From: Nautiliaceae bacterium
GTDB taxonomy: Bacteria; Campylobacterota; Campylobacteria; Campylobacterales; Nautiliaceae
Assembly: GCA_027008345.1 (NCBI GenBank)
Contig: JALTBU010000203.1
Location: forward strand, 1 to 58,425
Length of the DNA stretch: 58,425 nt
Direction: 5' to 3'
Shown here piece by piece: positions 3,036 through 56,929 of this stretch (within the stretch, counting starts at the first letter, position 1; the number at the start of each line of letters is the position of its first letter). Position numbers and translations under genes: made by a program. Below the pieces are notes generated by a model, which searched no databases, was not told the origin of the DNA, and was given only the letters and a program-made list of their open reading frames with translations.

Positions 3036-3890
3036 TTGTTTGCCATTATAGGTCCTACTGCCAGTGGAAAGAGTGATTTAGCAATTAAATTAGCTGAAAT
3101 ATTAGGATACGAAATACTTTCACTAGATTCTTTAAGCATTTATAAAGAAATAGATATAGCCTCGGCAAAACCTTCTTATGAAGAATTAAACAAAGTAAAA
3201 CATTACGGTATAAATGAAATATATCCAAATGAAAAATTTGATGTTACTAAATTTATTGAAATTTACAAAAAAATACCCCATCAAAAAATAATTATTGTAG
3301 GAGGAACAAGTTTTTATTTAAAAGCAATGATTAATGGAATTTCTCAAATGCCTAAAATATCTGAAAATATTAAACAAAAGGCCAAAAGTTTTTCATATGA
3401 AAGATTAAAACATATTGACCCTGAATTTACTTCAAAAATTTCACCAAATGATACATACAGAGTAACAAAAGGAGCTGAAATATATTTTGCCACAGGATTA
3501 CCGCCAAGCAGATTTTTTCAATTAAATCCCCCTAAACCTGTTCTTCCTAAAATTCCGATTTTTGAAATAGATATTGACAGAAAAACTTTAAGACAAAGAA
3601 TTATTAAAAGAACAAAAAAAATGTTTGAAAATGGTCTTATAGATGAAGTTGCATATCTTGAAGCTAAATATAAAGACAGACGCCTTCCTGCTCTAAAAGC
3701 CATAGGCATTAAAGAAGTTCTTGATTATTTTAACGGTATATACAATAAAAAAGAGCTTTTTGAAAAAATAGTTACAAACACTGCAAGACTTGCAAAAAGA
3801 CAGCAGACATTTAACAAAACACAATTCAACACCATAAAAGCACCTCTTAAAAATCTTGAAGAAATTATCCTACAACAAATAAATTACTAA
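3036..3890 (+). CDS. miaA: tRNA dimethylallyltransferase
   Basis: 284 aa with a TTG start. It has the N-terminal P-loop IIGPTASGKSDLAIKLA followed by EILSLDSLSIYKEIDIASAKP, the typical MiaA opening. Confidence 0.93.
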   Translation: MFAIIGPTASGKSDLAIKLAEILGYEILSLDSLSIYKEIDIASAKPSYEELNKVKHYGINEIYPNEKFDVTKFIEIYKKIPHQKIIIVGGTSFYLKAMINGISQMPKISENIKQKAKSFSYERLKHIDPEFTSKISPNDTYRVTKGAEIYFATGLPPSRFFQLNPPKPVLPKIPIFEIDIDRKTLRQRIIKRTKKMFENGLIDEVAYLEAKYKDRRLPALKAIGIKEVLDYFNGIYNKKELFEKIVTNTARLAKRQQTFNKTQFNTIKAPLKNLEEIILQQINY

Positions 3891-3908
3891 GAAAACAAGC
3901 TCTTCATA

Positions 3909-3988
3909 TTCACTCATCTACCCATTGACATATTATTCCATCAACTCATCCACCCATCAACCCATTCACTCATCAACTCATCCGCCCA
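3909..3988. repeat. array of 10 in-phase degenerate 8-bp units (TYNAYYCA)
   Basis: Read directly: ttcactca tctaccca ttgacata ttattcca tcaactca tccaccca tcaaccca ttcactca tcaactca tccgccca. It fills the gap between the convergent stops of miaA and the TPR gene. The + strand here is almost G-free. Confidence 0.9.
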
Positions 3989-6247
3989 CTAAAACAGTCC
4001 TTTCGCATCTTTACACAAACCTTTCCAAAGTTTAGAATTCTTCACTTTTAAACATTCATCAAGATATTTCTTTTCATTTGTAAGATTTGCAAGCATAAAC
4101 AATGCCCTCGCTTTCTCTTCACCTTTTACTCTTTTTAAAACTTCTTTTAAAACTTTTATAGCCTCTTTTTTGTTTTTAGTATATTTTGCATAAACAAATT
4201 CCACAAAAGGCGAATAAGGATATACTTTATATTCATTTTGCAAATCAATTATTTTTTTTGCAAATGTTGCGGCAAGAAGATAATTTTTATTCTCCATTCC
4301 CCATTTAACTATTTTTATATATACGTCTGTATTTTTTATATCTTTTTCTTTGATTGAATTTGCCACTTCAAGAGCTTTTTTGTAATCTCCAAGTTTCCAA
4401 AGAGCAAAAAATTTATAAAGTTTATATTTATGGCACTTCTTGTAAACCCCACATAAATCATCTATTGCAATAACGAGGTTTTTATAATCACCCAAGCCTT
4501 TTAGAGCTTCAATTTTTCTTTTCATCCATTTAATGAATATTTTATCATCTGGTGAATCAAGATATTTATTACATATTACAGAGGCAAGTCCATAATCCAT
4601 TGCTTTCATTGCACATTCATAAATTTTATCATCATATTTTTTATCAAGATTAAGATGATATTTTTTTATTACTTCTACGGCATCAATACATTTGTTTTTA
4701 TTCAAAAGCCATATAGCATATTCTTTTTTAACTTTATTCAAAAATTTTTCTTTCTCAGGAAATAAAGTTTTAGGTACAGAATTTAATTTATCTTCCATTG
4801 CAAGAATTTCTTTATATTTTTTAAGTTTTTCTAAAATTTTTGCTTTTTTTACGAGTGCTTTTAGAGCAATTTCACTTCCTTTATATTCTTTAATAATTTT
4901 ATCAATATATTTAAGCTGAGCATTGAGATCATTTTCTGGTAAATTAAAAAGAACTTTATCTTTTAATGCTTTAAGTGAATCACTATAATCACCAAAAGGA
5001 AATTTTTTAAGATACAAATCAATATAATAAAGAGATTTTTTATAATTTTTTGCTTTATAATTCCATACTGCCAAATAATATAGCAAAGGCTCATACATAT
5101 CATCAGTGTATTTTAATTTTTTAATTAAATCTTCTCCTATGTCAATTGCGAGTGAATACATATTATGTGAAGCTAAAAGTTTTGCAAGGTCAAATGCTTT
5201 TTTCTTATCTTTAAGCAAAAACTTTTTATTTGCTTTATATATCTTTTTATAATATTCATAAGCTTTTTTAAAATTTCCACTGTCCATATATCTCTGAGCG
5301 AGTCTTGCTGCGGCAAGAGATGCTATATCTATATTTTTAGTAGAAAACAAAACATCTTCATATAATTTCATAGCTTTTTTGGAATCTCCAGCTGAATAAA
5401 GCTGATCAGCTAAATAAATCATAGCAAGGTCTGCTTCATTTGTTCCAGGATATTCTGTTATTATTCTGTTAAAAAAATAACTTGCATCACTCAAAAAACC
5501 CATTTGCGAGTATGCTTTTGCCATAAGTAGTAAAACTTTTGGAAGTTTGTCGTCATACGCATATTTTTTTATCCATTTTTTACCTATCTCAATTAAATCC
5601 TCAGGATCATTATTTTTTTCTAAAAGAACCATTTTCATATATAATACATCAGGAATAAATACCGAATTTGGATATTTTCTTATAAAATCATCAATTTCAT
5701 CACTTACATCCATTCCTTTTTGAAAAGATTTGAGAATTTCGAAATATTTTAAAACATCTTGCGATTGTTTTGAAACAATGATAGGATTTTCATTCTCATC
5801 AACAGCTCCGATAAATATTTTAGGAGAATTTTTGAAATAAAAATTTAATCCCTTAGGTTTCTTTTTGGAAAGATATATTTCCATTGGAGATATAATTATC
5901 CATTTTTTAGAGATTTTTTTTTCTTGAAGGCTTAAAAGCGGATTCATATAAAGATTATCTTCTCCTGAAAACAAATAACATTTCTTTTTACATACGATTT
6001 TAATAAAAAATTTATGATTTTTAAAATAAGGTATAAATTTAAAAAATGTGCTTTTTGCTTTAAATACATAAGTAGATGGTATTTTATCAAATTCACATAA
6101 CACTGTATTTTTTTTCTTTATACATAAAAAAGCAAAATTATTATACATCGTTGTAATTTCATTTTTTATATCTGATTTTTGAAAATAATCTACATTGATT
6201 TCAAGAGAAAATAATAAAAGAGGAAAGAGAAAAAAAAGTTTTTTCAA
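3989..6247 (-). CDS. secreted tetratricopeptide-repeat (TPR) protein
   Basis: 752 aa with a signal peptide (MKKLFFLFPLLLFSLE). The remainder is dominated by 34-residue A/Y/L-patterned helical repeats, for example AMKLYEDVLF and FKKAYEYYKKIYKAN. Function unknown. Confidence 0.8.
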   Translation of the reverse strand: MKKLFFLFPLLLFSLEINVDYFQKSDIKNEITTMYNNFAFLCIKKKNTVLCEFDKIPSTYVFKAKSTFFKFIPYFKNHKFFIKIVCKKKCYLFSGEDNLYMNPLLSLQEKKISKKWIIISPMEIYLSKKKPKGLNFYFKNSPKIFIGAVDENENPIIVSKQSQDVLKYFEILKSFQKGMDVSDEIDDFIRKYPNSVFIPDVLYMKMVLLEKNNDPEDLIEIGKKWIKKYAYDDKLPKVLLLMAKAYSQMGFLSDASYFFNRIITEYPGTNEADLAMIYLADQLYSAGDSKKAMKLYEDVLFSTKNIDIASLAAARLAQRYMDSGNFKKAYEYYKKIYKANKKFLLKDKKKAFDLAKLLASHNMYSLAIDIGEDLIKKLKYTDDMYEPLLYYLAVWNYKAKNYKKSLYYIDLYLKKFPFGDYSDSLKALKDKVLFNLPENDLNAQLKYIDKIIKEYKGSEIALKALVKKAKILEKLKKYKEILAMEDKLNSVPKTLFPEKEKFLNKVKKEYAIWLLNKNKCIDAVEVIKKYHLNLDKKYDDKIYECAMKAMDYGLASVICNKYLDSPDDKIFIKWMKRKIEALKGLGDYKNLVIAIDDLCGVYKKCHKYKLYKFFALWKLGDYKKALEVANSIKEKDIKNTDVYIKIVKWGMENKNYLLAATFAKKIIDLQNEYKVYPYSPFVEFVYAKYTKNKKEAIKVLKEVLKRVKGEEKARALFMLANLTNEKKYLDECLKVKNSKLWKGLCKDAKGLF

Positions 6248-37641: not shown

Positions 37642-39450
37642 TTAAGATTTTTTCCTGCTCATTCTTTTTCTCTCAGTTGGATCAAGATATTTTTTTCTAA
37701 CCCTAATAGATTTTGGAGTAACTTCTACAAGTTCGTCATCTTCAATCCATTCAAGAGCTTTTTCAAGAGTAAGCTCAACTGGTGGAACAAGTTTTATGGC
37801 TTCATCACTTCCGCTTGCCCTTACATTTGTAAGGTTTTTACCTCTAATCGGGTTAACTTCAAGGTCATTGCTTCTGCTGTGTTCTCCTACAATCATACCG
37901 TTATATACTTTATCCCCCGGTTTTATAAACATTTTCCCCCTCTCTTGAAGGTTAAAAATAGCATATCCCGTTGCAGTCCCGTTTTCCATAGAAATAAGAG
38001 CGCCGTTTTTTCTTGTGTAAGGTTTTGTTGTAGCAGGTCTGAATTCTAAAAAGCTTGAATTAAGAACCCCCTCACCTTTTGTATCAGTCATAAATTCACC
38101 TCTGTAACCAATAAGTCCACGTGCAGGCATTTCAAATTCTATTCTTGTACTTCCATCAGATAAAGGCATCATATTTTTCATAATTCCGCCTCTTGTTCCA
38201 AGCTTTTCAATTACAGAACCGCTATATTCATCAGGAACATCAACCACTACATATTCGTAAGGTTCAAGTTTTACACCGTTTTCTTCTTTGATAATAACCT
38301 CAGGACGTGAAAGTGAAAATTCAAAATCTTCCCGTCTTAAATTTTCAGCCAAAATTGCAATTTGAAGCTCTCCTCTTCCGCTTACTTTAAATTTTCCTTC
38401 ACCAAGCTCTTCAATTCTCATGGCAATATTTGTTTCCATCTCTTTAAAAAGTCTATCTCTAAGCTTAGGAGCTGTTACATTTTTACCCTCAGTTCCTGCA
38501 AGAGGTGAATCATTAACACTCATAATTACGCTGATAGTAGGCTCTTCTATATGAAGAGGATCAAGTGCAACTGGATTATCTTTATCAGCAATTGTATCTC
38601 CTACATCAAGTGCTTCAAATCCAGCAACTGCAACAATGTCTCCGGCTTTTGCTTCATCTATTTCAATCCTGTCAAGTCCTAAAAACCCAAGAAGTTTTGT
38701 AATTCTACCGTTTATTTTTTGTCCGTCCGCTTTTATTAAAGTAACCTGATCACCTTTTTTAACTTTTCCGTTAAATATTCTTGCAATACCGATTCTTCCT
38801 ACATAATTATCATAATCAAGTGTAAAAACCTGCATTTGAAGAGGTTTTTCTACTTCACCTGCGGGTGCTGGAATATATTTTGTAATTGCTTCAAAAACAG
38901 GAGTCATATTGTCATTATCGTCTTCAAGTTCCCATTTCGCAATTCCGTTTTTTGCAGCTGCATAAATTACAGGAAAATCAAGCTGGTCTTCATTTGCACC
39001 CATACTTACAAACAAATCAAACACTTCATCAACTACCCTGTCAGGCTCGGCTGCGGGTTTATCAATTTTATTAACTACCAAAATAGGTTTTAGACCAAGT
39101 GAAAGTGCTTTTTTTACAACAAATTTAGTCTGAGGCATAACACCTTCTTGTGCATCAACAAGAAGTAAAACACCATCAACCATTTTAAGTACCCTCTCAA
39201 CCTCTCCGCCAAAGTCGCTGTGCCCCGGGGTATCTATTACATTAATTTTATAATCATTCCATTTAATCGCCGTATTTTTAGAAAGAATTGTAATACCTCT
39301 TTCTTTTTCCAAATCATTTGAATCCATTACTCTCTCACCGATTTCTTTTCTTTCATCAAGAGTTCCGGATTGTTTAAGAAGTTCGTCAACAAGGGTGGTT
39401 TTACCGTGGTCAACGTGAGCTATAACTGCTATATTTCTGATATTTTTCAT
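37642..39450 (-). CDS. typA: ribosome-associated translational GTPase TypA/BipA
   Basis: 602 aa. [24 protein letters not shown] and NKID are the GTPase motifs, within EF-G-like domain architecture. Confidence 0.96.
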
Positions 39451-39612
39451 TAATTGCCTTTAAAAAATTTTCGCAATTATATCACAAAAACTCTTATACT
39501 GTTTAACGCTTTTTCCTTACACATACACCTCTTTTCTCATACTTGCTTTCACATCCCTTCTTACTTCTCCCTACTTTCCAATTTAAGTTATAATAATAAA
39601 AAAAGGCCTGCC

Positions 39613-41259
39613 ATGGTAACAAATGCAGAAATAGCCAAAATGCTATCTCAAACTGCTGATTTACTTGAAATTAAAGGTGAAAATCCTTTTAAAGTAAGAG
39701 CATACAGAAACGCCGCAAGGCTTGTAGAAAATTCAAGCAAAGATTTTAATAAACTTGTAAAAGAGGGATTTGATTTAACAAAACTCCCGGGAATCGGGAA
39801 TGATTTAAGCACTTATATTAAAGAAATAGTTACAACAGGTAAATTTTCAAAACTGGAAGAGCTAAAAAAAGAAGTTCCCCAAGGACTTGTAGATATGCTC
39901 GCCATTGAAGGACTCGGACCAAAAAGAATCAAACAAATATATGATGCTTTTCACATAACGTCACTTGATGAGCTTAAAAAATATGCCGAAAACGGTGAGC
40001 TTGATAAGCTTCCGGGCTTTGGTCCAACACTTATTCAAAAAATTTTAAAAGGGGTAAAACAGCTTAAAAAAGCGGGGATCAGATTTTTATGGGCTGATGT
40101 TGAAAATGTGGCAGAAGATTTAAGAGAATATCTTTTAAAATTTCCGGGCGTTGAAATAGTGGAAATTGCAGGAAGTTACAGAAGAAGAAAAGAGACAGTC
40201 GGAGATCTTGATATTTTAGTGGTAGCCGAAGATTATCCAAAGGTCAGCGAATATTTTATTAAATACCACAGGGTTAAAGAAGTCCATTCAGCCGGACTTA
40301 CACGCTCAACAGTTTTTCTTGACAATGACCTCCAAATTGATTTAAGAGCTGTGAGCAAAGAAAGCTATGGAGCGGCTCTTCATTATTTCACAGGAAGCAA
40401 AGCTCATAATATAGAAATCAGAAAAATCGCCATTGAAAAAGGGATGAAAGTAAACGAATACGGTGTATATAAAGACAATAAAAGAATAGCAGGTGAGAGT
40501 GAAGAAGAAGTTTATAAAGCAGTGGGGCTTTGTTATATCGAACCTGAACTAAGGGAAAACAGAGGCGAGATTGAAGCGTGTATAAAAGGAGCTCTTCCAA
40601 AACTTGTTAAACTTGAAGATATCAAAGGGGATTTTAATATAAATATAGATATTAATCATGCGGTAAATTTTGCCATTGAAAAAAAATATAAATATATAGC
40701 CGTAAATATTAAATCTCAATCAGACATTGAAATGATAGATGAATTAAATGAAAAATATAAAAGAAAGCTTAAAATTTTTAAAGCCTTTAAAACCAAAATA
40801 TTAAAAGACGGCAGTATTGAAGAGAGTGAGCTTATGAATAAGGCAGATTTAATTATCGGAGAAATTACCGATAATTTAGATCTTGATTTTCAGGAGCAGA
40901 CAAAAAGAATTCTTAAAGCATTTGAAAAGATTAATATTTTAGCTCATCCTACTTGTAGAATTATTCAAAAACGCTCTGAAATAAGAGCAGATTTTGAAAA
41001 AATTTTTGCTACAGCCGCTGAAAAAAACATTGCACTTGAAATCAATGCTAATCCAAAAAGGCTTGACCTGCCAGATCCTTTAATAAAAGAGGCTATAAGT
41101 AAAAATGTAAAACTTATAATAAATTCAGACGCTCAAAACGAAAAAGAGATGGATTTTATAAAATACGGCATAAATCAGGCAAGAAGGGGATGGGCTGAGG
41201 GAAAAGATATTATAAACAGCTGGAATTTAAGAGAAGTTAAGAAATTTTTTCAAATTTAA
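39613..41259 (+). CDS. polX: family X DNA polymerase (Pol beta-like core plus degenerate PHP domain)
   Basis: Helix-hairpin-helix motifs are LPGIGNDL, IEGLGPKR and LPGFGPTL. The catalytic stretch is GSYRRRKETVGDLDILV ... IDLR. The start is taken at ATG 39613 (MVTNAEIAKML), which has AAAGG upstream. The track ORF from 39454 reads through the G-poor spacer. Confidence 0.85.
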   Translation: MVTNAEIAKMLSQTADLLEIKGENPFKVRAYRNAARLVENSSKDFNKLVKEGFDLTKLPGIGNDLSTYIKEIVTTGKFSKLEELKKEVPQGLVDMLAIEGLGPKRIKQIYDAFHITSLDELKKYAENGELDKLPGFGPTLIQKILKGVKQLKKAGIRFLWADVENVAEDLREYLLKFPGVEIVEIAGSYRRRKETVGDLDILVVAEDYPKVSEYFIKYHRVKEVHSAGLTRSTVFLDNDLQIDLRAVSKESYGAALHYFTGSKAHNIEIRKIAIEKGMKVNEYGVYKDNKRIAGESEEEVYKAVGLCYIEPELRENRGEIEACIKGALPKLVKLEDIKGDFNINIDINHAVNFAIEKKYKYIAVNIKSQSDIEMIDELNEKYKRKLKIFKAFKTKILKDGSIEESELMNKADLIIGEITDNLDLDFQEQTKRILKAFEKINILAHPTCRIIQKRSEIRADFEKIFATAAEKNIALEINANPKRLDLPDPLIKEAISKNVKLIINSDAQNEKEMDFIKYGINQARRGWAEGKDIINSWNLREVKKFFQI

Positions 41260-43050: not shown

Positions 43051-45636
43051 TCATTGTTTAAGCTGTAAAAGTGTATTTAGCATCTGGTCTGATGTTGTAA
43101 TTGTTTTTGAGTTTGCCTGAAAACCTCTTTGTATAACTATCAGCTGTGTCAAACTTCTGCTCAAATCCACATTACTCATTTCAAGTGCGCTTGGCTGAAT
43201 AGTACCTCTGCCTCCTGTCCCGGCAGTTCCGATAATCGGATCACCTGAGTTTGGAGACGCGCTAAAAAGTGTCCCCCCTTCACTCATAAGTCCTTCATTA
43301 TTTACAAATTTTGCCATTGCAACCTGAGCAAGAGAATAACTTCTTCCGTTTGTAAATACTCCTATAATAGTCCCTGTCTGATCAACTACAAGCTGTTGCA
43401 AATCTCCTCCCGGATAACCGTCCTGAGTCTGTCCGGATGTGGCACTCGGTGCTTCAAACGATGTAATCCCATCAAATTTGCCTAAGGTTCCTAAATTAAG
43501 CTGAATAGCCTGTCCCGGATTTGCACCGTTGTTTGGATTAAAAATAAGACTTGGAGGATTAAAACTTTTCAAACTTCCATCAGGATTGAATTTGATATCT
43601 CCAAATGCCGGCTGATCTAAACTGCTTGGTTTTGGAACCTCAGCATACCATTTCCAAACCGTAGGGTCATTTGGATTAGTTGAAGTATGCCATTTTCTAA
43701 AATGAAGAGTCAAAGTATGTTTGCTTCCAAGTGAATCAAACACATCAATACTTGTTGTATGGGTAGCGGCATTGATATCCTGAGTTGTAGCCACTCCCCC
43801 AGCTGCCAAACTTCCGTTAATAGGAGAAAATGCATCGGTAAAAAGCTGATTGTCTTTACTATCATCAGGATAACCGCTTATTTTTATATTAAATGAATTT
43901 GGCGATGTATTTAAAATTTGTAACTTTCCATCTTTATTAATATTTACATTCCCACTATTATTTGTTGTTGAATTTAAAGGATCTCCGCTGTCATCAATAG
44001 CAAGTTGCCATAAATATACAAGATCCTCTATATCATGGAAATAATATACATCATTTTTCTTAATAAGGTTTGAAGAATCTCCGTTACCGTTAAGAGGGTT
44101 AAAAATAGCTTGAAGTCTTCCAAGTCTGTTATCAGTTGTAGTATCGGCGGCATTTCCGTTAGAGTCCTCCACTTCTACATCCTGAATTCCATTACCGTTG
44201 CTTTCAACTATTTTACCATCTTTAACACTCACTATATCATCAAGTCCCAAATTATTAATATCTGAATTTATTAAACAGCATAAATCATTAATTGTCTGAA
44301 AATCTTTTCCATAGATATAAGTTTTTTCTGTATTGTTTGAATCACCGTATGTTATTTTTATTTTTTCATTTACATTATAAAATGCTCTTTTATCATTAGA
44401 ATCATAAGTCCAGTGAAGACCTTCATTTGAATCAGTCGTTATAGGTGTTTTTGCCTGATAACTTCCACTTGTAGTCGCACATCCTTCTGTTTCATTTATA
44501 GGATTTGAAGAATAAATAAATTTCCTGTTTTCTCCAAGACCGTTAATATTTGCTATAAGCCCCTGTCCGTCTTCCAGATTAAATGCATTACCGTTTGTAT
44601 TAAAAAGTTCACCCACATCATCAGCACCGATAAAAGAATTTTGAATAGCTTTTAAATTACCTGATGATGTAGAAGGTCCATCAAGTCCTTTTAAAACACC
44701 CTCTAAAATATTATTTGTGGATGAGAGATGAACTTCTGTTTTTATTCTGTTTGCTGGGTCAATAATCTGTCCATTACCACTTAAATAAACTTTATACTGT
44801 GTAGAAGGCATTTCTCCTGTTGTATCTTTTATAATTTGATTTATTTCGTCAAGTAAATCTTTTACAGTAGTAAATTTTCTGTCTGTATCGGATATACTTT
44901 TACCATAAGTAAATTTATAAATTTCAGTATTTGTGTCAATATTACCATCTCCGTTTTTATCTATTGCAACAGAAATATAATCTGTATCCGGAGTCAGCTT
45001 AATAATTTCACCATTTGCATTAAAAATTCCGTTCATATCATCCAAAGGATCCACAGTTGCCCTTGTGCCGCTCATTTCTGTAATATGATCACCGCTGTTT
45101 AAATTAGCTTTAATCTGAATTTTGCTTGTGGCATGGGCAGGGGTTGTAAGTCCAGGCGGGATCGAAATAGGTTTAACACCGCTTGCCGTATCAATTGTAT
45201 GTGTTTCAGGATCTGCAAGCCATCCTTGAACTATATATCCGTTTGGATCGACAAAATTACCATTTGCATCAAAAGTAAAATCACCCGCTCTTGTATATCT
45301 GTATGTTTTACCTCCGTCATCACTTACTACAAAAAAACCGTCTCCACTTATAGCCATATCAGTATTTTTATCTGTATTTTGAATACTTCCTTGTTTAAAA
45401 ATTGTCTCAACAGCACTTACAGTTGCTCCAAGTCCAACTTGCAGTGAATTTTTACCACCAATAGTTCCCTGCGGCGCCGTTGCTGATTTTACAGTTTGAG
45501 ATAAAAGGTTTTGAAAATTTGTTCTGCTGTATTTAAAACCTACCGTATTAACATTGGCAATATTGTTACCTTCTACATCCATAGCAACTTGATGAGCGTT
45601 AAGTCCGCTAACCCCGCTCCACAAACTTCTCATCAT
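43051..45636 (-). CDS. flgE: flagellar hook protein FlgE (large epsilonproteobacterial type)
   Basis: 861 aa. The N-terminus is MRSLWSGVSGLNAHQVAMDVEGNNIANVNTVGFK. The C-terminus is LEMSNVDLSRSLTQLIVIQRGFQANSKTITTSDQMLNTLLQLKQ. The huge central insert matches Campylobacter FlgE. Confidence 0.93.
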   Translation of the reverse strand: MMRSLWSGVSGLNAHQVAMDVEGNNIANVNTVGFKYSRTNFQNLLSQTVKSATAPQGTIGGKNSLQVGLGATVSAVETIFKQGSIQNTDKNTDMAISGDGFFVVSDDGGKTYRYTRAGDFTFDANGNFVDPNGYIVQGWLADPETHTIDTASGVKPISIPPGLTTPAHATSKIQIKANLNSGDHITEMSGTRATVDPLDDMNGIFNANGEIIKLTPDTDYISVAIDKNGDGNIDTNTEIYKFTYGKSISDTDRKFTTVKDLLDEINQIIKDTTGEMPSTQYKVYLSGNGQIIDPANRIKTEVHLSSTNNILEGVLKGLDGPSTSSGNLKAIQNSFIGADDVGELFNTNGNAFNLEDGQGLIANINGLGENRKFIYSSNPINETEGCATTSGSYQAKTPITTDSNEGLHWTYDSNDKRAFYNVNEKIKITYGDSNNTEKTYIYGKDFQTINDLCCLINSDINNLGLDDIVSVKDGKIVESNGNGIQDVEVEDSNGNAADTTTDNRLGRLQAIFNPLNGNGDSSNLIKKNDVYYFHDIEDLVYLWQLAIDDSGDPLNSTTNNSGNVNINKDGKLQILNTSPNSFNIKISGYPDDSKDNQLFTDAFSPINGSLAAGGVATTQDINAATHTTSIDVFDSLGSKHTLTLHFRKWHTSTNPNDPTVWKWYAEVPKPSSLDQPAFGDIKFNPDGSLKSFNPPSLIFNPNNGANPGQAIQLNLGTLGKFDGITSFEAPSATSGQTQDGYPGGDLQQLVVDQTGTIIGVFTNGRSYSLAQVAMAKFVNNEGLMSEGGTLFSASPNSGDPIIGTAGTGGRGTIQPSALEMSNVDLSRSLTQLIVIQRGFQANSKTITTSDQMLNTLLQLKQ

Positions 45637-45665: not shown

Positions 45666-45683
45666 TAGCAATTTTTATTCCAA
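45666..45683 (-). promoter_or_regulatory. sigma-54 (RpoN) promoter of flgE
   Basis: The reverse complement reads TTGGAATAAAAATTGCTA, which has GG-N10-GC spacing and fits the TTGGAAC-N5-TTGCTT form used by epsilonproteobacterial flagellar middle genes. It lies about 30 nt upstream of the AAAGGA Shine-Dalgarno and ATG. Confidence 0.75.
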
Positions 45684-45725
45684 AATCTATAAATTCTCAA
45701 TACAAATTTTAAAAATCGCTTCTAA

Positions 45726-45797
45726 ATACAACATCCTCACATTCACACATTCACACATCTACCCATACACCCATCAACTCATCCACCCATCTACCTT
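45726..45797. repeat. array of about 9 degenerate 8-bp units (same family as 3909..3988)
   Basis: atacaaca tcctcaca ttcacaca ttcacaca tctaccca tacaccca tcaactca tccaccca tctacctt. It runs from the flgE promoter region into the stop codon of the flgE paralogue. Confidence 0.88.
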
Positions 45798-47707
45798 TTA
45801 AGATTAATAGCCCTTTGTATCATCTCATCACTTGTAGTAACTGTTTTAGCAGCGCTTGCAAATGCTTTTTGAGTTATTATAAGCTCAGTCATTGCCTGTG
45901 CCATATTTACATTAGAAGTTTCTATCATATGAGAATGAACAGTACTTCCAGCAATATAACCTCCGGTTTGGTCTTTATATAAAAACGCCTTGTTTGAATT
46001 GGAAGTTTCTTTAAATAAAGAACCTCCGATACTTTCAAGCCCCTGGTCGTTTGCAAAATGAAAAACAGGTATTGTCGCAAGTTTCACGCTTTTTTCATTA
46101 GAAAAATTTGCAAAAATATTTCCGTTTTGGTCTATTTCATAATTTTTAAGATATCCTTCTGATACTCCGTCTTGATTAAAAGAATAAGACACTTTATTAT
46201 CTATTCCTCTAAATGAACTTAAATCCGTTTTGATAGTTATGGGTTGAGGTAAAGATAAAGAAATCTGTTTAGGAGACAGTAAAAATCCTTCGTTATTAAA
46301 AGTAAAATCAACACTCTGTTTTGATAAAATCTCATTATTTTTAATAACAGAAATATTTCCGCTCCATATCGTATTTCCGTTATTAACTTCTTTTTTTAAA
46401 AATTCAAAACTTATAGTGTCCTTATCACCGTTTGCTTCATAAATATACCCTCCAAAACTCTTTTTGTTTGCGGTAAATTCATAACTTTTAGCAACTGTCC
46501 CAGGAACTATTATATTTCCTGCAGAAAATATATTATTAAAAAATGCTTCATTATTTTCAGCTGTTCTTTCAAATTTACTGTTAATTGTTGTTGTAGCAGA
46601 GAGGTTTTTTATAACAATTTTTCCATCTTCCACATTTACTTCGGAAATGCCTGGATATATGGTATTTAAAGCATCTTGTATTTTTTTTGCAAAAGAGTCT
46701 ATTGTATTAAATTCATTTTCAGATTCGGGTTTGTTTTTGTATACATACAAATAACCGGCAGCATTTTTTACAATATCGTCATTTGATTTGATTAAAAGTG
46801 AATTTTTAGAAGCTATCGTAATCGAATCACCATTTTTATAATATAAAATACCTTTGTTTTTTAATTCATCCGCAAGAGAATTAATAATATCTTCTTTACT
46901 GCTCCCATCAGGCAGTGTAAGTTTTATTTCTTCACCATTAACACTAAAATCAATATTTACATCTTTACCGTCTTTTTCATCATCTTTTATACATATTTCT
47001 TTTTGAAAAAGGCCGTCTTTATAAGTTATATTATCACCAAGAGTATAGGCTATTGAATTTCCGTCAACCATATTTAAAAAATTTCCGTCTTTATCGTAAA
47101 GTGCTGAAAAATAAAGAGTACTATCAGCCTTTGAAGGAGTTATTAATTTATCATCATTATTTAAATTTGCTTTTATTTTTATATTTGACGTTGCAACTGC
47201 TGGTAAAATCACATTATCCGGCAAAGAAATAGGCGAAAACTTTCCTGTATTTATCAAATCATCGGTATTGACAGAAGAATTAATTACATATCCGTTTTTA
47301 TTTTGCGTCATATTGTTTGCATTTGCAACAATTAGATATGCCCCTTCGTCATTTACCAAAAATCCTTGTGCATCCCTGCTGAATTTACCGTTTCTCGTAT
47401 AAAAACTTTCATCTCCTTTTTTAACTTCAAACCATCCTTCTTTATCTAACGCCAAATCAAAAGTATTATCCGTATTTATCAAACTTCCCATTTGTAAATT
47501 TTTTGCTGTTGAGTGGAGTGTGCTACCAAGTCCGACATCAGAACTTACGGGATTTGAAGATAAATTTTCAGAAAAAATTGTCTCAAATTCAGGAATATTC
47601 TCTTTATAAGCTGTTGTGTTTATGTTTGAAATGTTATGTCCCCATATATCTATACCGTTTTGAAAACTTTTTAATCCGGTAATTCCGTTATAAAAAGATG
47701 TTGTCAT
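45791..47707 (-). CDS. flagellar hook-protein paralogue (FlgE-family)
   Basis: 638 aa. The N-terminus is SFYNGITGLKSFQNGIDIWGHNISNINTTAYKE. The C-terminus is IETSNVNMAQAMTELIITQKAFASAAKTVTTSDEMIQRAINLKR, the rod/hook terminal heptads. It follows flgD, like the second flgE gene of Campylobacter and Helicobacter. Confidence 0.85.
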   Translation of the reverse strand: MTTSFYNGITGLKSFQNGIDIWGHNISNINTTAYKENIPEFETIFSENLSSNPVSSDVGLGSTLHSTAKNLQMGSLINTDNTFDLALDKEGWFEVKKGDESFYTRNGKFSRDAQGFLVNDEGAYLIVANANNMTQNKNGYVINSSVNTDDLINTGKFSPISLPDNVILPAVATSNIKIKANLNNDDKLITPSKADSTLYFSALYDKDGNFLNMVDGNSIAYTLGDNITYKDGLFQKEICIKDDEKDGKDVNIDFSVNGEEIKLTLPDGSSKEDIINSLADELKNKGILYYKNGDSITIASKNSLLIKSNDDIVKNAAGYLYVYKNKPESENEFNTIDSFAKKIQDALNTIYPGISEVNVEDGKIVIKNLSATTTINSKFERTAENNEAFFNNIFSAGNIIVPGTVAKSYEFTANKKSFGGYIYEANGDKDTISFEFLKKEVNNGNTIWSGNISVIKNNEILSKQSVDFTFNNEGFLLSPKQISLSLPQPITIKTDLSSFRGIDNKVSYSFNQDGVSEGYLKNYEIDQNGNIFANFSNEKSVKLATIPVFHFANDQGLESIGGSLFKETSNSNKAFLYKDQTGGYIAGSTVHSHMIETSNVNMAQAMTELIITQKAFASAAKTVTTSDEMIQRAINLKR

Positions 47708-47728: not shown

Positions 47729-47796
47729 TTTACATATTCATTCGTAGACATATCCATTTACTCATCCACACATCCACTCATCAACCCATTAACTTA
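47729..47796. repeat. array of degenerate 8-bp units (same family) in the flgD / flgE-paralogue spacer
   Basis: tttacata ttcattcg tagacata tccattta (ctca) tccacaca tccactca tcaaccca ttaactta. There is one 4-nt phase slip. The array occupies most of the 91-nt spacer. Confidence 0.85.
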
Positions 47797-47798
47797 AC

Positions 47799-48473
47799 TC
47801 ACCCCTGCCATTCATATATTTCTTTTATTTTAGAAAAAGGCACATAATTGTTACCCAGTTTTGCATAAGCACTACCGTCTTCAAACCTTACAGATTCAAT
47901 AGGATAAGCCCCGAGTGCCGTTTGATGTTCTGTATTATCAGGAGAAGTAAATTTTGCAGTGATTTCATATGTATCGCTTGGCACTCTTTTACCATTATTA
48001 TCTGTTAAATCCCAATCAAAACTTAAAATACCCTTAGTATGCGCTTGAAGTGGAAATTCCCTTACTATATCCCCTTTTTTATTTTTAATAATCACTTTTC
48101 CACTGCTTATATCATTTCCAAAATAAAGTTCAAAACTTTTTGATTTGTCTTCATCGGTAACATTTAGATATCTCTCGCCTGTATCTGCCATTTTTCCAAT
48201 TGCACTTATTGTATTTAATTCTTGTGATTGGCTAAGCTGAGAAGCTAATTTTTCTAATGTAGATTGCATATTCTGATTCATTTCAAGTGTTGTAAGAGAA
48301 GCTGTCTGCTCAAGCATTTTGTCCGTATCCATAGGATCTGTCGGGTCTTGCATTTCAAGCTGTTTAATAAAAAGTTTTAAAAATGCATCTTTATCAAGCT
48401 GTGATTTTGGATTAAAAACCTTATCAGGCGAAGGGGCTGTTTTAGTATTTTGGTTGACTGAATTTATAGGCAT
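47799..48473 (-). CDS. flgD: flagellar hook assembly/capping protein FlgD
   Basis: 224 aa. The N-terminal FLKLFIKQLEMQDPTDPMDTDKMLEQTASLTTLE is the FlgD signature, and a C-terminal beta-rich domain follows. Confidence 0.92.
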   Translation of the reverse strand: MPINSVNQNTKTAPSPDKVFNPKSQLDKDAFLKLFIKQLEMQDPTDPMDTDKMLEQTASLTTLEMNQNMQSTLEKLASQLSQSQELNTISAIGKMADTGERYLNVTDEDKSKSFELYFGNDISSGKVIIKNKKGDIVREFPLQAHTKGILSFDWDLTDNNGKRVPSDTYEITAKFTSPDNTEHQTALGAYPIESVRFEDGSAYAKLGNNYVPFSKIKEIYEWQG

Positions 48474-50138: not shown

Positions 50139-50212
50139 TTATTCCCTTTATAAAATTTCTCATACATTTATTCACTTATCAACTTAATACTCAAAACTTA
50201 AACCTTAAAACT
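50139..50212. repeat. G-free spacer with a decayed 8-bp periodicity (possible degenerate member of the octamer family)
   Basis: These 74 nt have no G on the + strand. ttattcac ttatcaac ttaatact caaaactt shows the same 8-nt phase and a T..A..C bias, but it is much weaker than the other arrays. Confidence 0.4.
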
Positions 50213-55273: not shown

Positions 55274-56133
55274 TTTATTCCCTTAAATAACATATATTCA
55301 TTTTTCTGCGCCCCGCTTGCTCTTGCGACCACATCGCATTTTACTTTAAAAAGATAAAAAACTTCTCTTTGACATTCATTATAAAGACATTCAAAATTTC
55401 CCATTCCTTTGCTTATAACCAAATCGGAATTATAAAATATATCTTTGCTTTGTTTATTGGCTTTATTTAAACAAAATCCGGGAGTATCAACACCGCTATC
55501 AATCACATCGGCAAGATTGAAAATTTCAAGTCCTTTTAAATCATCAATTGTCACATCATTTATAATAGGTTTTCCTCTAACAATATAATAAATTTTCACA
55601 TCAGGATTATATTCTTTTATTGTTTCAATAAGCAGTTCATCAAATACGTTTTCCCCTGCATTATCGGCTAAATAAGCAATCTTTTTTGCATTTAATATTT
55701 TGTTTTTCAATAAAAGATAATCATCTTTGAAAAATTTCATTTCAAATATTCTTTTAATTTCTTTTTGCAAATCATATTCCTGATTGACACCAAGGTCTAT
55801 CACATTCCCTGCAACTGCAATTTTACATGCATCATAAAGTCTATCTTTTGATTTAGACAGTCTTTTTTTAAGTATTGGCTTAAATTTAAGTGCCTCTTTA
55901 ATTGCTTCTTTTTTCTCTTTTTCAAACAAATCTCTTTTTTTAACTATTTCAGCCACACTTTCATATACATCACTTGCGATGATTGGAGGTTCAAAAGAGA
56001 GGTCATAAAATGAAAGTTTTTTTGCACCTTCTCTTAAAACCTTAGATGCAGTCTCTTCATCAAGATTTAATCTTTCAGTAATATTAAAAACCTGATTATA
56101 AATACACAAATAACATTCTTTGCTTATTTTCAT
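55270..56133 (-). CDS. DUF89-family (damage-control phosphatase-like) protein
   Basis: 287 aa. Cys-containing N-terminus (SKECYLCIYNQ), LADNAGENVFDELL and DLVISKGMGNFECL fit the DUF89/ARMT1-like pattern. Confidence 0.75.
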   Translation of the reverse strand: MKISKECYLCIYNQVFNITERLNLDEETASKVLREGAKKLSFYDLSFEPPIIASDVYESVAEIVKKRDLFEKEKKEAIKEALKFKPILKKRLSKSKDRLYDACKIAVAGNVIDLGVNQEYDLQKEIKRIFEMKFFKDDYLLLKNKILNAKKIAYLADNAGENVFDELLIETIKEYNPDVKIYYIVRGKPIINDVTIDDLKGLEIFNLADVIDSGVDTPGFCLNKANKQSKDIFYNSDLVISKGMGNFECLYNECQREVFYLFKVKCDVVARASGAQKNEYMLFKGIK

Positions 56134-56369
56134 TTAAGTCCGAGCTCCTTTTTGATTACAGGCTCATTAAATCCGCAAATCCATCTACTACCAATCAGTA
56201 TCACAGGAACACCCCTGCACCCGTGTCTTTCACAGTCTTTTGCTGCTTTTGCGTCTTTACTTATATCAATCTTGCTAAATCTTACTTTATTTTTTCTAAA
56301 AAACTGCTCAGCTCTTGTGCACCATATACATCCAGGCGCAGTAAATAAAACAACTCTTTTTTGAGCCAT
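56130..56369 (-). CDS. glutaredoxin-like (NrdH/YruB-type) small thioredoxin-fold protein
   Basis: 79 aa. VVLFTAPGCIWCTRAEQFF carries the CxxC motif, followed by RGVPVILIG, the cis-Pro region. It overlaps the DUF89 gene by 4 nt. Confidence 0.82.
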   Translation of the reverse strand: MAQKRVVLFTAPGCIWCTRAEQFFRKNKVRFSKIDISKDAKAAKDCERHGCRGVPVILIGSRWICGFNEPVIKKELGLK

Positions 56370-56393: not shown

Positions 56394-56471
56394 TGGGTAG
56401 ATGGGTATAAGAGTATATGGGTAAAATTTATATCAAAAATTCACTCATTTACCCATCAACTCATTCACTCA
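56394..56471. repeat. inverted pair of octamer arrays (4 units in the G-rich orientation, a 14-nt spacer, 4 units in the C-rich orientation)
   Basis: tgggtaga tgggtata agagtata tgggtaaa (56394..56425), then atttatatcaaaaa, then ttcactca tttaccca tcaactca ttcactca (56440..56471). tgggtaaa and tttaccca are exact complements. The last unit overlaps the stop of the 154-aa gene. Confidence 0.85.
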
Positions 56472-56929
56472 TCTTCTTTATTTTCTTTTTTAAGTACCCT
56501 TCCCCACATAAGTTTATATTTTCTTCTACAAAATTCAAGTTCTTCTTGGCATATTTCAAGCTGTTTTTGAAGTCTTTCAATTGTTTTTTTAGACTCTTCA
56601 TAAACTTCTTGAATCGAATAAATTGATTCTTTTAAAAATTTATTTTCATCTTTTAATGCTTCAATCGTTTCATCTTTACTCATCAAAACTTTTTCATGAA
56701 GCGCTAAAAGCATACCAATTGTCCGCTCAGCAATAGAATTTTCTTTTTCAATTATTTGAAGCTCTTGAAGAGGAACGAGTGATTTCGCCACAGATTCAAC
56801 TTCAATAAAAATACCCTCTTCGTTTTTTTTACATTTAAGTTTTTTTTCTTTACAAAGTTTAATAATCTCTTTTTTATTTTTACCTGTGAGTTTAGAAAAC
56901 TCTTCTAAATTAAGCCAGGTTTGCATCAA
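56465..56929 (-). CDS. HTH (MerR/excisionase-like) plus coiled-coil protein, function unknown
   Basis: 154 aa. The N-terminal WLNLEEFSKLTGKNKKEIIKLCKEKKL looks like an HTH_17-type motif. The rest is heptad-like and Glu/Lys/Leu-rich. It overlaps purE by 4 nt. Confidence 0.6.
   Translation of the reverse strand: MMQTWLNLEEFSKLTGKNKKEIIKLCKEKKLKCKKNEEGIFIEVESVAKSLVPLQELQIIEKENSIAERTIGMLLALHEKVLMSKDETIEALKDENKFLKESIYSIQEVYEESKKTIERLQKQLEICQEELEFCRRKYKLMWGRVLKKENKEDE

What the first reader, a model, noticed from the sequence alone, without database searches (positions are those of the whole stretch)
3909..3988. Ten in-phase copies of a degenerate 8-bp unit fill a convergent intergenic gap; type locus of a dispersed octamer-array family
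Seen:
- Between the miaA stop and the stop of the TPR gene the + strand reads ttcactca tctaccca ttgacata ttattcca tcaactca tccaccca tcaaccca ttcactca tcaactca tccgccca.
- That is ten octamers with no phase slip. T1, A4 and C7-A8 are nearly invariant, and there are only two G in about 90 nt.
- The same unit forms arrays at 45726..45797, 47729..47796 and 56394..56471. Decayed versions lie at 50139..50212 and 39509..39586. All are intergenic.
- Every array has the C-rich strand on the + strand, except the G-rich inverted arm at 56394..56425. The complementary strand is the sense strand of almost all neighbouring genes.

What it is not: a CRISPR array (there are no spacers), an obvious IS or MITE, or a helical-repeat phasing signal.

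Possible readings (inference):
- DNA level. Across unit borders the arrays create 9-mers such as TCATCCACC, CCATTCACT, TCATTCACT and TCATCCACA. These resemble DnaA boxes (TTATCCACA in E. coli; from memory, a TCATTCACN-type box in Helicobacter pylori). The arrays could be DnaA-titrating or DnaA-responsive sites.
- RNA level. On the sense strand the unit is (G/A)AUG(A/G)GUN. That places an AUG every 8 nt in rotating frames, some closed at once by UGA (AUG AGU UGA, with UGAUG overlaps). It also gives regularly spaced GAG/GGG/GGA triplets, like the multi-site targets of oligomeric RNA-binding proteins (TRAP, HutP or CsrA types).
- Structure. The G-strand could adopt non-B-form DNA.
Basis: partly seen in the sequence, partly recalled or inferred. 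Interest (0 to 1): 0.65.

Follow-up and report, generated by a model that had tools for sequence, protein, structure and literature searches.

The report
Fast-changing 8-base repeat arrays between genes
The ten in-phase 8-base units are real and belong to a repeat family that fills gaps just behind genes in this deep-sea-vent bacterium. The arrays gain and lose units between near-identical strains and are missing at the same sites in slightly more distant relatives. They look like a new example of the known, still unexplained bacterial "long-unit microsatellites", not DnaA sites or a conserved regulatory signal.

Summary
**Observation: confirmed.** 3909-3988 holds ten in-phase units of T-Y-N-A-C-Y-C-A. 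The same unit forms arrays at 45726-45797, 47729-47796 and 56439-56471, plus an inverted arm at 56394-56425. A three-unit pattern gives 17 matches against 0 in shuffles.

**What it is.**
- Each clear array abuts the stop codon of a minus-strand gene, so the mRNA carries the G-rich, almost C-free strand.
- Strains 99.8% identical in the flanks differ by a 16-nt deletion (array 3) and a 32-nt deletion (array 1).
- Co-occurring relatives about 88-93% identical have 12-22 nt in place of the 99-nt inverted pair.
- At three other sites, relatives at or below about 80% identity have compact spacers. Relatives at 83-90% identity carry different arrays of the same family.
- This matches the known class of intergenic 7-8-nt repeats (Xanthomonas/Nostoc, Rehm 2015), including its placement rule and its convergent inverted pairs. 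G-quadruplex potential is absent here.

The DnaA reading fails: only 6 of about 35 units carry the strictly conserved epsilonproteobacterial TTCAC core.

**Side result.** In a Calditrichaceae MAG, inverted arrays of this same unit bracket a PF05635 gene. That keeps a mobile-cassette reading open.

**Verdict:** new member of a known kind, moderate interest.

The parts
3909..3988 (-). Array 1. Ten in-phase octamers, C-rich on the + strand and G-rich on the - strand. It fills the convergent gap between the miaA stop (3888-3890) and the TPR-gene stop (3989-3991), and it abuts the TPR stop.
   Evidence: A 32-nt (4-unit) deletion, 3952->3985, is present in the main strain of run X3, which is otherwise 99.8% identical. 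The array is unstructured on both strands.
45726..45797 (-). Array 2. About nine octamers that begin inside the TAG stop (45791-45793) of the FlgE paralogue and end upstream of the sigma-54-type promoter of flgE.
   Evidence: Relatives have only 0-9 nt between that stop and the promoter, so the array is an insertion or expansion.
45668..45684 (-). Context: a sigma-54-type promoter (TGGAAT-N5-TTGCT) of flgE. It is conserved in relatives that lack the array.
   Evidence: Read directly from the sequence and from the aligned spacers of L133-L137. The promoter assignment is an inference from the consensus.
47729..47796 (-). Array 3. About eight octamers, the distal ones degenerate, lying between the flgD stop (47799-47801) and the start of the FlgE paralogue (47707).
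   Evidence: A 16-nt (2-unit) deletion at 47760 is seen in runs X1, X3 and X4 but not in X2 or the window, and SNPs cluster at 47741, 47791, 47792 and 47800. The orthologous spacer is 3-15 nt in relatives whose FlgD is 64-76% identical.
56394..56425 (+). Array 4, left arm. About four units, G-rich on the + strand.
   Evidence: It pairs with the right arm.
56439..56471 (-). Array 4, right arm. About four units, C-rich on the + strand. It supplies the last codons and the TGA stop (56465-56467) of the DUF3972 gene.
   Evidence: The array-less allele ends ...KKENEN*, whereas the window allele ends ...KKENKEDE* (derived and the window sequence).
56396..56477 (.). The hairpin formed by the two arms of array 4. 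It lies between the DUF3972 gene and the glutaredoxin gene.
   Evidence: The RNA fold is -27.2 kcal/mol (z = -6.0) on the - strand and -26.6 (z = -5.4) on the + strand. In co-occurring relatives about 88-93% identical, 12 or 22 nt stand in place of 56381-56479.
50139..50212 (-). A degenerate, G-poor stretch between the kdtA stop (50227) and the DUF167 start (50138). Its right part, 50181-50212, is a heptamer array (AACTTAA)n.
   Evidence: The orthologous spacer is 12-17 nt in L135, L127 and L128.
39509..39586 (-). A degenerate, C/T-rich, G-poor stretch in the divergent gap between the bipA start (39450) and the ATG at 39613.
   Evidence: In the Nautiliaceae MAG M17 (L050, 85-90% identical in the flanks) the same site holds a clear 7-8-unit array plus CTCCTCC heptamers.

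Best explanation
**What it is.** These are long-unit simple-sequence repeats: an 8-bp 'microsatellite' family specific to one Nautiliaceae (Campylobacterota) lineage.

**How the arrays change (shown).** They gain and lose whole units. The likely mechanism is replication slippage or unequal exchange, which is an inference.

**How they arise (shown that they are recent; how is unknown).** They appeared recently in spacers that were originally only 3-20 nt long.

**Why they sit where they do (inferred).** They survive only where they do no harm:
- outside coding sequence;
- pressed against the 3' end of the upstream gene, so that the ribosome-binding site or promoter of the downstream gene stays intact;
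- oriented so that the mRNA carries the G/A/U strand. That strand is almost free of C and has stop codons in all three frames.
  - The C-rich, G-free strand would be an ideal binding site for the termination factor Rho. Placed in the sense RNA of an operon, it would cause premature termination.
  - The C-rich strand also has no stop codons, so it would extend any reading frame that ran into it.

**Function.** I see no need to invoke a site-specific regulatory function. Any effect is probably generic: lengthening an intercistronic spacer, or in the one inverted pair creating a long hairpin.

**Left unexplained.** This account does not explain why one unit skeleton (CAT--AC-) is used at every site.
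For: **Unit-multiple changes.**
- A 16-nt deletion in array 3 and a 32-nt deletion in array 1 occur in strains with 4-5 substitutions per about 2.3 kb of flank.
- No other indels were reported in the 14.3 kb laid.

**Recent origin.**
- The 99-nt inverted pair is replaced by 12 or 22 nt in co-occurring relatives.
- The flgD->flgE2, flgE2->flgE and kdtA->DUF167 spacers are compact in all relatives at or below about 80% nt identity.
- The closest relatives (L125, L050) have arrays of the same family at the same sites, but with different units and lengths.

**Placement.**
- All four clear arrays abut or overlap a minus-strand stop codon.
- Sense strands have 0-2 C in arrays 1-3.
- The L125 spacer has 0 C in 207 nt.
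- The G strand has stops in all three frames and 8-9 ATG per array in arrays 1-3. The C strand has almost none of either.

**The same rule in other genomes.**
- With arrays oriented by their C-rich strand, the ORF on the 3' side is the closer one in 58 cases against 24 (p = 2e-4).
- Next to stop codons the sense strand is the G strand in 32 cases against 8 (p = 2e-4).
- All 11 close inverted pairs have the G arm first.

**Agreement with the literature.** The placement rule, the convergent pairs and the length variation between close relatives are those described for the GGGAATC and GGGGAYT repeats of Xanthomonas and Nostoc (PMC4692102).
Against: - Slippage from random seeds does not explain why every array in this lineage, and in sister species (L050, L053, L066, L125), uses the same skeleton with the same variable positions.
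- A 99-nt inverted pair is hard to build in place by slippage.
- The Rho-avoidance filter is inference only.
  - In other phyla 12 arrays lie with the C strand in the sense orientation right before start codons.
  - Cyanobacteria, which lack Rho as far as I know, show a similar rule in the literature.
- I found no gradient of unit quality along arrays, so there is no support for directional growth.
- In this window the strand bias is explained equally well by replication. The + strand has negative GC skew throughout, and every array is C-rich on it.
- No transcript data exist for this organism.
Confidence: 0.6

Rival explanations
1. The arrays are ORF-less hairpins or solo arms of a mobile foldback cassette. 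The full form carries a small PF05635 gene (23S-rRNA-intervening-sequence protein, Avd-like four-helix bundle) between inverted repeat arrays. A cassette-linked, unit-specific process seeds them at gene boundaries.
For: - In a Calditrichaceae MAG (L070), inverted arrays of this very unit bracket a PF05635 gene (E = 7e-35). The arms are GGTGAATG... at 3406-3439 and ACCCATTC... at 3881-3915.
- The same layout, with other units, is seen in L091 and in a viral contig, L220.
- All three keep the G-arm-first polarity.
- The window's inverted pair shows presence/absence polymorphism against a compact allele.
- One unit skeleton at many sites calls for copying or for a unit-specific generator.
Against: - No PF05635-like ORF was found by a profile search in the window, or in the other fetched DNA of this organism and its Nautiliaceae relatives (L001-L004, L050, L053, L066, L125-L139).
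- Four of the five arrays are single arms with no trace of a partner.
- No clear target-site duplication is visible at the array-4 junctions.
Confidence: 0.17
2. The arrays are one-way Rho loading sites. The C-rich, G-free, unstructured + strand RNA acts as a rut site. It ends miaA transcripts and stops antisense transcription from running into the minus-strand operons.
For: - The + strand of array 1 has 33 C and 2 G in 80 nt, and its minimum free energy as RNA is 0.
- It starts 18 nt after the miaA stop.
- No intrinsic-terminator-like hairpin can form there.
- All arrays present the C-rich strand to antisense transcripts.
Against: - This rests on composition only. There are no transcript ends and no Rho data.
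- The arrays are absent in relatives that have the same gene order, so the function cannot be essential.
- Rapid length changes argue against a tuned signal.
Confidence: 0.1
3. The arrays are an RNA-level element in the sense transcript. They would be a multi-site platform for an RNA-binding protein or for ribosomes (SD-like G tracts, an AUG every 8 nt, UGAUG overlaps), tuning translation or stability between cistrons. The hairpin form would be an RNase III processing site.
For: - The G strand binds an assumed standard 16S 3'-end (anti-SD) sequence better than background. The mean is -4.1 to -4.8 kcal/mol in arrays 1 and 2 against -1.2 for the background.
- Arrays 1-3 hold 8-9 AUG each, and there are stops in every frame.
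- The array-4 hairpin has about 30 bp of stem.
Against: - There is no conservation at orthologous spacers.
- Copy number varies.
- Arrays 3-5 are hardly SD-like.
- GGA is present in only a minority of units.
- No covariation can be assessed, and there is no Rfam match.
Confidence: 0.08
4. The arrays are DnaA-box clusters that titrate or respond to DnaA.
For: Some 9-mers across unit borders fit the relaxed epsilonproteobacterial pattern HHWTTCACN. Six such matches lie in the arrays. One 9-mer fits the H. pylori consensus TCATTCACN.
Against: - The TTCAC core is strictly conserved in tested epsilonproteobacterial boxes (PMC5043019). It is present in only 6 of about 35 units, and array 3 has none.
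- The two variable positions of the unit fall inside that core.
- Neighbouring 9-mers overlap at 8-bp spacing.
- The arrays are absent from orthologous sites in relatives and vary in length.
Confidence: 0.02
5. The arrays form non-B DNA or RNA: a G-quadruplex on the G strand or an i-motif on the C strand, as proposed for the Xanthomonas and Nostoc heptamers.
For: The strands are strongly G/C asymmetric. The known relatives of this class form G4 structures in vitro (PMC4692102).
Against: No window array contains four G3 tracts within loops of 12 nt or less. There are only 1-4 GGG tracts per array, often 13-29 nt apart.
Confidence: 0.03

Closest known systems
G-rich heptamer repeats GGGAATC (Xanthomonas) and GGGGA(C/T)T (Nostoc PCC 7120), Rehm et al. 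2015, PLoS One, PMC4692102
   Same: - Dispersed tandem arrays of a genome-specific 7-8-nt unit, strongly intergenic.
- The G-rich strand lies on the sense strand within 50 bp after stop codons, or on the antisense strand just upstream of ORFs.
- Frequent convergent inverted pairs.
- Length and sequence differ between close relatives at the same intergenic site.
- Function unknown.
   Different: - The unit here is 8 nt, with three freely varying positions inside a single array.
- The host is a 29.5% GC Campylobacterota thermophile-type lineage.
- No G-quadruplex motif is present, so G4 formation cannot be the common denominator of the class.
- The preference for four units that they report was not assessed here.
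TAACTGA direct repeats of Beggiatoaceae, cyanobacteria and Bacteroidetes (MacGregor 2015, PMC4679880), and the cyanobacterial STRR heptamers (Mazel et al. 1990, from my own knowledge)
   Same: - Abundant intergenic tandem repeats of one specific short unit.
- Related units are rarely repeated.
- The phylogenetic distribution is patchy and suggests spread without a known mechanism.
   Different: - The TAACTGA sets are short (2-6 copies) and mostly sit a few nt upstream of start codons.
- The arrays here sit behind stop codons, have 5-10 units, and are degenerate.
23S rRNA intervening sequences carrying the S23p / PF05635 ORF (for example the 428-nt Coxiella burnetii IVS, PMC4990558)
   Same: - A stem formed by inverted flanks around a small four-helix-bundle gene.
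- Regarded as a selfish insert in transcribed DNA.
- In L070, L091 and L220 such genes sit between inverted 7-8-nt arrays.
   Different: - The window has no such ORF.
- Its arrays lie between protein genes, not in rRNA.
- Most are single arms.
- Whether RNase III cuts the array-4 hairpin is untested.
REP/BIME elements and MITEs
   Same: - Small, dispersed, intergenic and often hairpin-forming.
- Polymorphic in presence or absence between strains.
   Different: - The arrays are internally tandem-repetitive with no fixed length.
- Most are not palindromic.
- No terminal inverted repeats or target-site duplication were recognised.

Membership tests
Intergenic long-unit SSR families (units of 5-11 nt; the Rehm 2015 / Mrazek class) | Head-to-tail tandem copies of a short unit, with many arrays of the same unit dispersed in one genome | tested here: met
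   Four clear arrays plus two degenerate ones lie in 58 kb. There are 17 pattern hits against 0 expected.
Intergenic long-unit SSR families (units of 5-11 nt; the Rehm 2015 / Mrazek class) | Copy number varies between closely related strains | tested here: met
   16-nt and 32-nt deletions occur in strains 99.8% identical in the flanks. The arrays differ in L125 and L050.
Intergenic long-unit SSR families (units of 5-11 nt; the Rehm 2015 / Mrazek class) | Placement rule: the 5' end of the G-rich strand lies next to the nearest ORF, and inverted pairs are convergent | tested here: met
   Window arrays. Other genomes: 58 against 24, 32 against 8, and 11 of 11 pairs. The ORF calls were crude.
Quadruplex-forming repeat subclass (Rehm 2015) | Four or more G3 tracts with short loops | tested here: not met
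   No G4 motif is present in any array, even with loops up to 12 nt.
DnaA-box cluster | 9-mers matching the cognate DnaA box. In Epsilonproteobacteria the core TTCAC at positions 4-8 is strictly conserved. | tested here: not met
   Six of about 35 units carry TTCAC, none in array 3, and TCATTCACN matches once.
DnaA-box cluster | Specific DnaA binding | not testable with these tools
   Needs EMSA or ChIP.
CRISPR array | Repeats of 23-50 nt separated by unique spacers | tested here: not met
   The units are contiguous 8-mers with no spacers.
Multi-site RNA-binding-protein targets (TRAP, HutP, CsrA types) | A conserved core triplet (GAG/UAG, UAG or GGA) at the protein's spacing, conserved at orthologous leaders | tested here: not met
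   The period is 8. GGA occurs in only a minority of units (read). The arrays are absent in relatives.
Rho utilisation (rut) site, + strand RNA | About 70-80 nt of C-rich, G-poor, unstructured RNA | tested here: met
   33 C and 2 G in 80 nt, with a minimum free energy of 0. This is composition only.
Rho utilisation (rut) site, + strand RNA | Rho-dependent termination downstream | not testable with these tools
   No RNA runs were found.
IVS-like PF05635 foldback cassette | Inverted arms enclosing a PF05635 ORF | tested here: not met
   Array 4 has arms but only a 13-nt loop. A profile search found no PF05635-like ORF in the window, or in the L001-L004, L050, L053, L066 and L125-L139 DNA of this organism and its relatives. 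The whole genome was not searchable.
MITE / REP element | Defined ends with terminal inverted repeats, and for MITEs a target-site duplication | tested here: inconclusive
   The filled and empty alleles of array 4 were compared by eye. No clean duplication was seen, and the flanks have diverged.

The most novel reading that the evidence does not exclude
The arrays are not passive microsatellites. They would be the footprints (solo arms and ORF-less hairpins) of an undescribed cassette type present in several phyla. Its autonomous members carry an Avd-like PF05635 gene between inverted 7-8-nt arrays. Such cassettes, or a repeat-adding activity linked to them, would seed unit-specific arrays at gene boundaries with a fixed G-arm-first polarity.
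Probability: 0.15. Interest if true: 0.75.

Novelty: new member of a known kind. Interest (0 to 1): 0.38.

Why it matters
- **Wider reach of the class.** This extends the poorly understood class of genome-specific 7-8-nt intergenic repeats to the Nautiliaceae (Campylobacterota).
- **A constraint on explanations.** The placement rule of the class (G strand in the sense RNA after stops, convergent pairs) holds in a family with no G-quadruplex potential. That rules out G4 formation as the general explanation.
- **Recent births.** The arrays are born within less than about 7-12% sequence divergence. The lineage could therefore serve to catch array birth in the act.
- **Practical uses.**
  - The arrays are strain markers for vent populations.
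  - They break short-read assemblies.
  - They warn against reading DnaA boxes or enhancer sites into repeat units.
- **If the PF05635 link holds.** It would point to a new kind of mobile or repeat-adding system.

Tried and rejected
1. **Whole-genome census.** I could only add about 7 kb (L001) and about 9 kb (L443) of the same organism. Neither holds a further CATYNAC array.
2. **Rfam.** No family matches in the window.
3. **Literature by sequence string.** Nothing relevant.
4. **RNA runs.** None found.
5. **'The same unit in many phyla means a universal motif'.**
   - The genome-contig scan found (CATYNACH)n arrays in Bacteroidota, cyanobacteria, Calditrichota, Nitrospirota, Aminicenantes and others.
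   - Shuffled-unit control patterns gave similar counts in IMG/VR: 55, 78 and at least 119, against 86 for the target.
   - Among bystander period-8 arrays in control-fetched loci, only 2 of 56 have the CAT--AC- skeleton.
   - The recurrence is therefore not shown to be more than ascertainment. Each genome has its own unit.
6. **Directional growth.** There is no left-right difference in residual similarity of the flanks, or in adjacent-unit distance.
7. **IHF-site resemblance** (WATCAANNNNTTR against catcaacccattaac). It fits only some unit pairs, so I dropped it.
8. **CsrA** (GGAUG). It is present in only a minority of units, so I dropped it.
9. **Intrinsic terminators.** None lies at any array.
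10. **Target-site duplication at array 4.** Not recognisable.
Full report

Yes.
- Positions 3909-3988 read as ten in-phase octamers of consensus T-Y-N-A-C-Y-C-A.
- The per-position counts are T1 10/10, A4 8/10, C5 9/10, C7 9/10 and A8 10/10. The 80 nt contain 33 C and only 2 G.
- Tandem Repeats Finder reports the array at periods 8, 16 and 32. It also reports the arrays at 45732-45795, 47763-47782, 56389-56423 and 56439-56473.
- A three-unit degenerate pattern with up to one mismatch matches 17 times. All matches are on the + strand and inside the four named arrays. The 100 dinucleotide-preserving shuffles gave 0.00.
- The stretches at 50139-50212 and 39509-39586 are G-poor and only loosely periodic. 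The right part of the first is really a heptamer array (AACTTAA)n.
- The window has 29.5% G+C.

**2. Where do the arrays sit?**

Pfam confirms the neighbouring genes: miaA (3036-3890, +), a TPR protein (3989-6247, -), FlgE (43051-45636, -), a FlgE paralogue (45791-47707, -), FlgD (47799-48473, -), DUF167, KdtA, a glutaredoxin (56130-56369, -), DUF3972 (56465-56929, -) and BipA.
- Every clear array abuts or overlaps the stop codon of a minus-strand gene: 3988|3989, 45797 over 45791, 47796|47799 and 56471 over 56465.
- Every clear array leaves the ribosome-binding site or promoter of the next gene untouched.
- The mRNA therefore carries the G-rich strand, which has 0-2 C in arrays 1-3.
- That strand has stop codons in all three frames, and arrays 1-3 hold 8-9 ATG each. 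The C-rich strand has almost neither.
- The DUF3972 gene actually ends inside array 4.

**3. Which organism?**
- The miaA protein is encoded on contigs from hydrothermal-vent metagenomes and on an NCBI MAG, GCA_027043385.1.
- A contig of 'Nautiliaceae bacterium M17' (L050) is 85-90% identical to 38645-39976.
- I conclude that this is a Nautiliaceae (Campylobacterota) MAG.

**4. The arrays change quickly.**

I laid the contigs of four vent metagenome DNA runs on the window.

| Site | Difference seen | Runs |
|---|---|---|
| Array 3 | 16-nt (two-unit) deletion at 47760, with SNPs clustered in and next to the array | X1, X3, X4 |
| Array 1 | 32-nt (four-unit) deletion, 3952->3985 | X3, main strain |
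| Array 4 | whole inverted pair (56381-56479) replaced by 12 nt | X2, X4 |
| Array 4 | whole inverted pair replaced by 22 nt | X2 |

- The contigs that carry the two deletions differ from the window by only 4-5 substitutions in about 2.3 kb.
- No other indel was reported in the 14.3 kb laid.
- The contigs that lack array 4 are about 88-93% identical to the window over the short flanks.
- The 12-nt allele ends the DUF3972 protein with ...KKENEN*. The window allele ends ...KKENKEDE*, with the stop supplied by the array.

**5. Orthologous spacers.**

Fifteen loci encoding FlgD relatives came from JGI vent metagenomes.

| Site in the window | Closest relatives | More distant relatives |
|---|---|---|
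| flgD -> flgE2 spacer (array 3), 92 nt | L125 (83% nt identity): 207 nt with zero C, made of about six octamers of the same family followed by purine heptamers | FlgD 64-76% identical: 3-15 nt (for example taaaaaATG) |
| flgE2 -> flgE (array 2) | not available | 0-9 nt between the stop and a conserved sigma-54-type promoter |
| kdtA -> DUF167 | not available | 12-17 nt in L135, L127 and L128 |
| 39.5-kb site ('decayed' in the window) | L050: a clear 7-8-unit array | not available |

- The family is shared by sister species. L053 and L066 are further Nautiliales MAGs with such arrays at other loci.
- Individual arrays, however, are young and turn over.
- The ancestral spacers were compact.

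**6. Beyond this lineage.**
- Arrays of (CATYNACH)n occur in Bacteroidota, cyanobacteria, Calditrichota, Nitrospirota, Aminicenantes, Armatimonadota, Planctomycetota and others. Several loci often come from one genome.
- This looked like a universal motif, so I ran controls.
  - In IMG/VR the target pattern gave 86 loci. Shuffled-unit patterns gave 55, 78 (this one partly overlaps the target) and at least 119.
  - Among 'bystander' period-8 arrays in control-fetched loci, 2 of 56 have the CAT--AC- skeleton. Chance is about 1.6%.
- Octamer and heptamer arrays with many different units are common, and each genome has its own unit family.
- The cross-phylum recurrence of this unit is not shown to be more than ascertainment.

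**7. A placement rule that does generalise.**

I oriented the non-coding arrays from the other genomes by their C-rich strand.
- The ORF on the 3' side of that strand is the closer one in 58 cases against 24. The median distances are 14.5 and 88 nt (p = 2e-4).
- Within 20 nt of a stop codon, the sense strand is the G strand in 32 cases against 8 (p = 2e-4).
- Within 20 nt of a start codon, it is the C strand in 12 cases against 4 (p = 0.08).
- All ten close inverted pairs in these loci, plus array 4, have the G-rich arm first (11 of 11).
- My ORF calls were crude, so the counts are approximate.
- This is exactly the rule published for the GGGAATC repeats of Xanthomonas and the GGGGAYT repeats of Nostoc. 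[quoted passage not shown] Lengths differ between Xcc and Xac at the same loci, and the function is unknown (PMC4692102).
- Earlier notes of this scan pointed me to that paper.

**8.
- *DnaA.*
  - Footprinted epsilonproteobacterial DnaA boxes share a strictly conserved TTCAC core at positions 4-8 (PMC5043019).
  - Only 6 of about 35 units carry it, array 3 has none, and TCATTCACN matches once.
  - The two most variable unit positions fall inside that core, and 9-mers at 8-bp spacing overlap.
- *RNA-binding platform or AUG/UGA play.*
  - The sequence properties are real.
  - The arrays are absent at orthologous sites and vary in length.
  - Only arrays 1, 2 and the 39.5-kb stretch are notably SD-like.
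- *Non-B structure.*
  - No array has a G4 motif.
  - Arrays 1 and 2 are unstructured on both strands. The C strand of array 1 has a minimum free energy of 0.
  - Array 3's sense strand forms a partial hairpin (-12.2 kcal/mol, z = -3.3).
  - Only array 4 folds strongly, at -27 kcal/mol with z = -6 on either strand.
- No terminator-like site coincides with an array, and Rfam finds nothing.

**9. What it most likely is.**
- *Shown:* a lineage-specific, hypervariable octamer repeat family that arose recently in once-compact spacers.
- *Inferred:*
  - Length changes come from slippage or unequal exchange.
  - Position and orientation reflect what is tolerated.
  - An untranslated insert of 70-200 nt inside an operon would invite Rho-dependent polarity if it were C-rich and unstructured. 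A C-free insert is invisible to Rho.
  - The G strand also ends any frame that runs into it within a few codons, as seen in DUF3972. The stop-free C strand would extend it.
  - In a hairpin, a G arm transcribed first sequesters the C arm as soon as the C arm emerges.
- *Weak points of the filter idea:*
  - C-sense arrays lie before start codons in other phyla.
  - The published rule also holds in cyanobacteria.
  - In this window, replication-strand bias explains the orientation equally well. GC skew is -0.16 on the + strand, and the extra purine-rich flgI spacer in L443 is also G-rich on the same strand.
- *Unexplained:* why every array uses one skeleton.

**10. A lead that keeps a bolder reading alive.**
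- I searched the fetched loci for inverted arrays 200-1200 nt apart. In three of the nine pairs, the arrays bracket a PF05635 gene (23S-rRNA-intervening-sequence protein, Avd-like).
  - L070 (Calditrichaceae): E = 7e-35, with arms of the very unit studied here.
  - L091 (Fimbriimonadales): E = 3e-16.
  - L220 (a viral contig): E = 2.5e-35.
- All three keep the G-arm-first polarity.
- This repeats, on independent loci, a claim made in earlier notes of this scan.
- A profile built from these proteins finds nothing in the window, or in the L001-L004, L050, L053, L066 and L125-L139 DNA of this organism and its relatives.
- The arrays could therefore be ORF-less derivatives of such cassettes, which resemble the selfish IVS of Coxiella (PMC4990558). 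I put this at about 15%.

**11. Verdict.**
- The thing is a new member, in a new phylum and with an 8-nt degenerate unit, of a known but unexplained kind.
- Its main value is as a clean counter-example to the G-quadruplex explanation of that class, and as a lineage in which array birth is recent enough to study.

Noticed in passing
L070:3406-3915; L091:3288-3825; L220:3422-3881: Small PF05635 genes (23S rRNA intervening-sequence protein, Avd-like) sit between inverted 7-8-nt tandem arrays, with the G-rich arm always first. The L070 arms (GGTGAATG... / ...ACCCATTC) use the same unit as the window's arrays.
   Followed up: partly
L125:1367-1573: In the closest relative, the flgD -> flgE-paralogue spacer is 207 nt with no C at all on the sense strand (A79 G91 T37). 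It consists of octamers, then purine heptamers (GTAGGAA / GGAGGAG), then a non-repetitive tail that is also free of C.
   Followed up: partly
window 50181-50212; L126:1030-1051; L128:4934-4973: Other short-unit repeat families sit right behind stop codons in this group: (AACTTAA)n in the window, (AAGTTAA)n after flgD in L126, and (AACAGTG)n after the FlgE paralogue in L128. The last unit resembles the cyanobacterial STRR3 unit CAACAGT (from my own knowledge).
   Followed up: no
L443:5571-5834 (about 5 kb beyond the window's right end): The 264-nt spacer between an MFS gene and flgI holds a degenerate purine-rich repeat (ggaggaagtaggaaggaggg...) just upstream of a sigma-54-type promoter (TGGAAT-N5-TTGCT). 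A 7-nt (TTTGAGT) indel separates samples L445 and L443.
   Followed up: no
window 48483-49811 (L443:17613-18977 against L444:17613-18941): The FliK-like hook-length gene is called at 454 aa in one sample and 442 aa in another. The 36-nt in-frame length difference lies in a repetitive, low-complexity protein.
   Followed up: no
window 45668-45684 and spacers: The sigma-54-type promoter of flgE is conserved across relatives, and in them it starts 0-9 nt after the stop of the upstream gene. The window's array 2 and about 50 more nt were inserted between the two, so the array is not a required enhancer site.
   Followed up: partly
L051:2000-2110: In a Leptolyngbyaceae MAG, a (CCATCCAC)n array lies next to TGGTCAT heptamers (the STRR2 type, from my own knowledge) and close to a tRNA gene. 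Several arrays in other phyla abut the 3' ends of tRNA genes, for example in L012.
   Followed up: no
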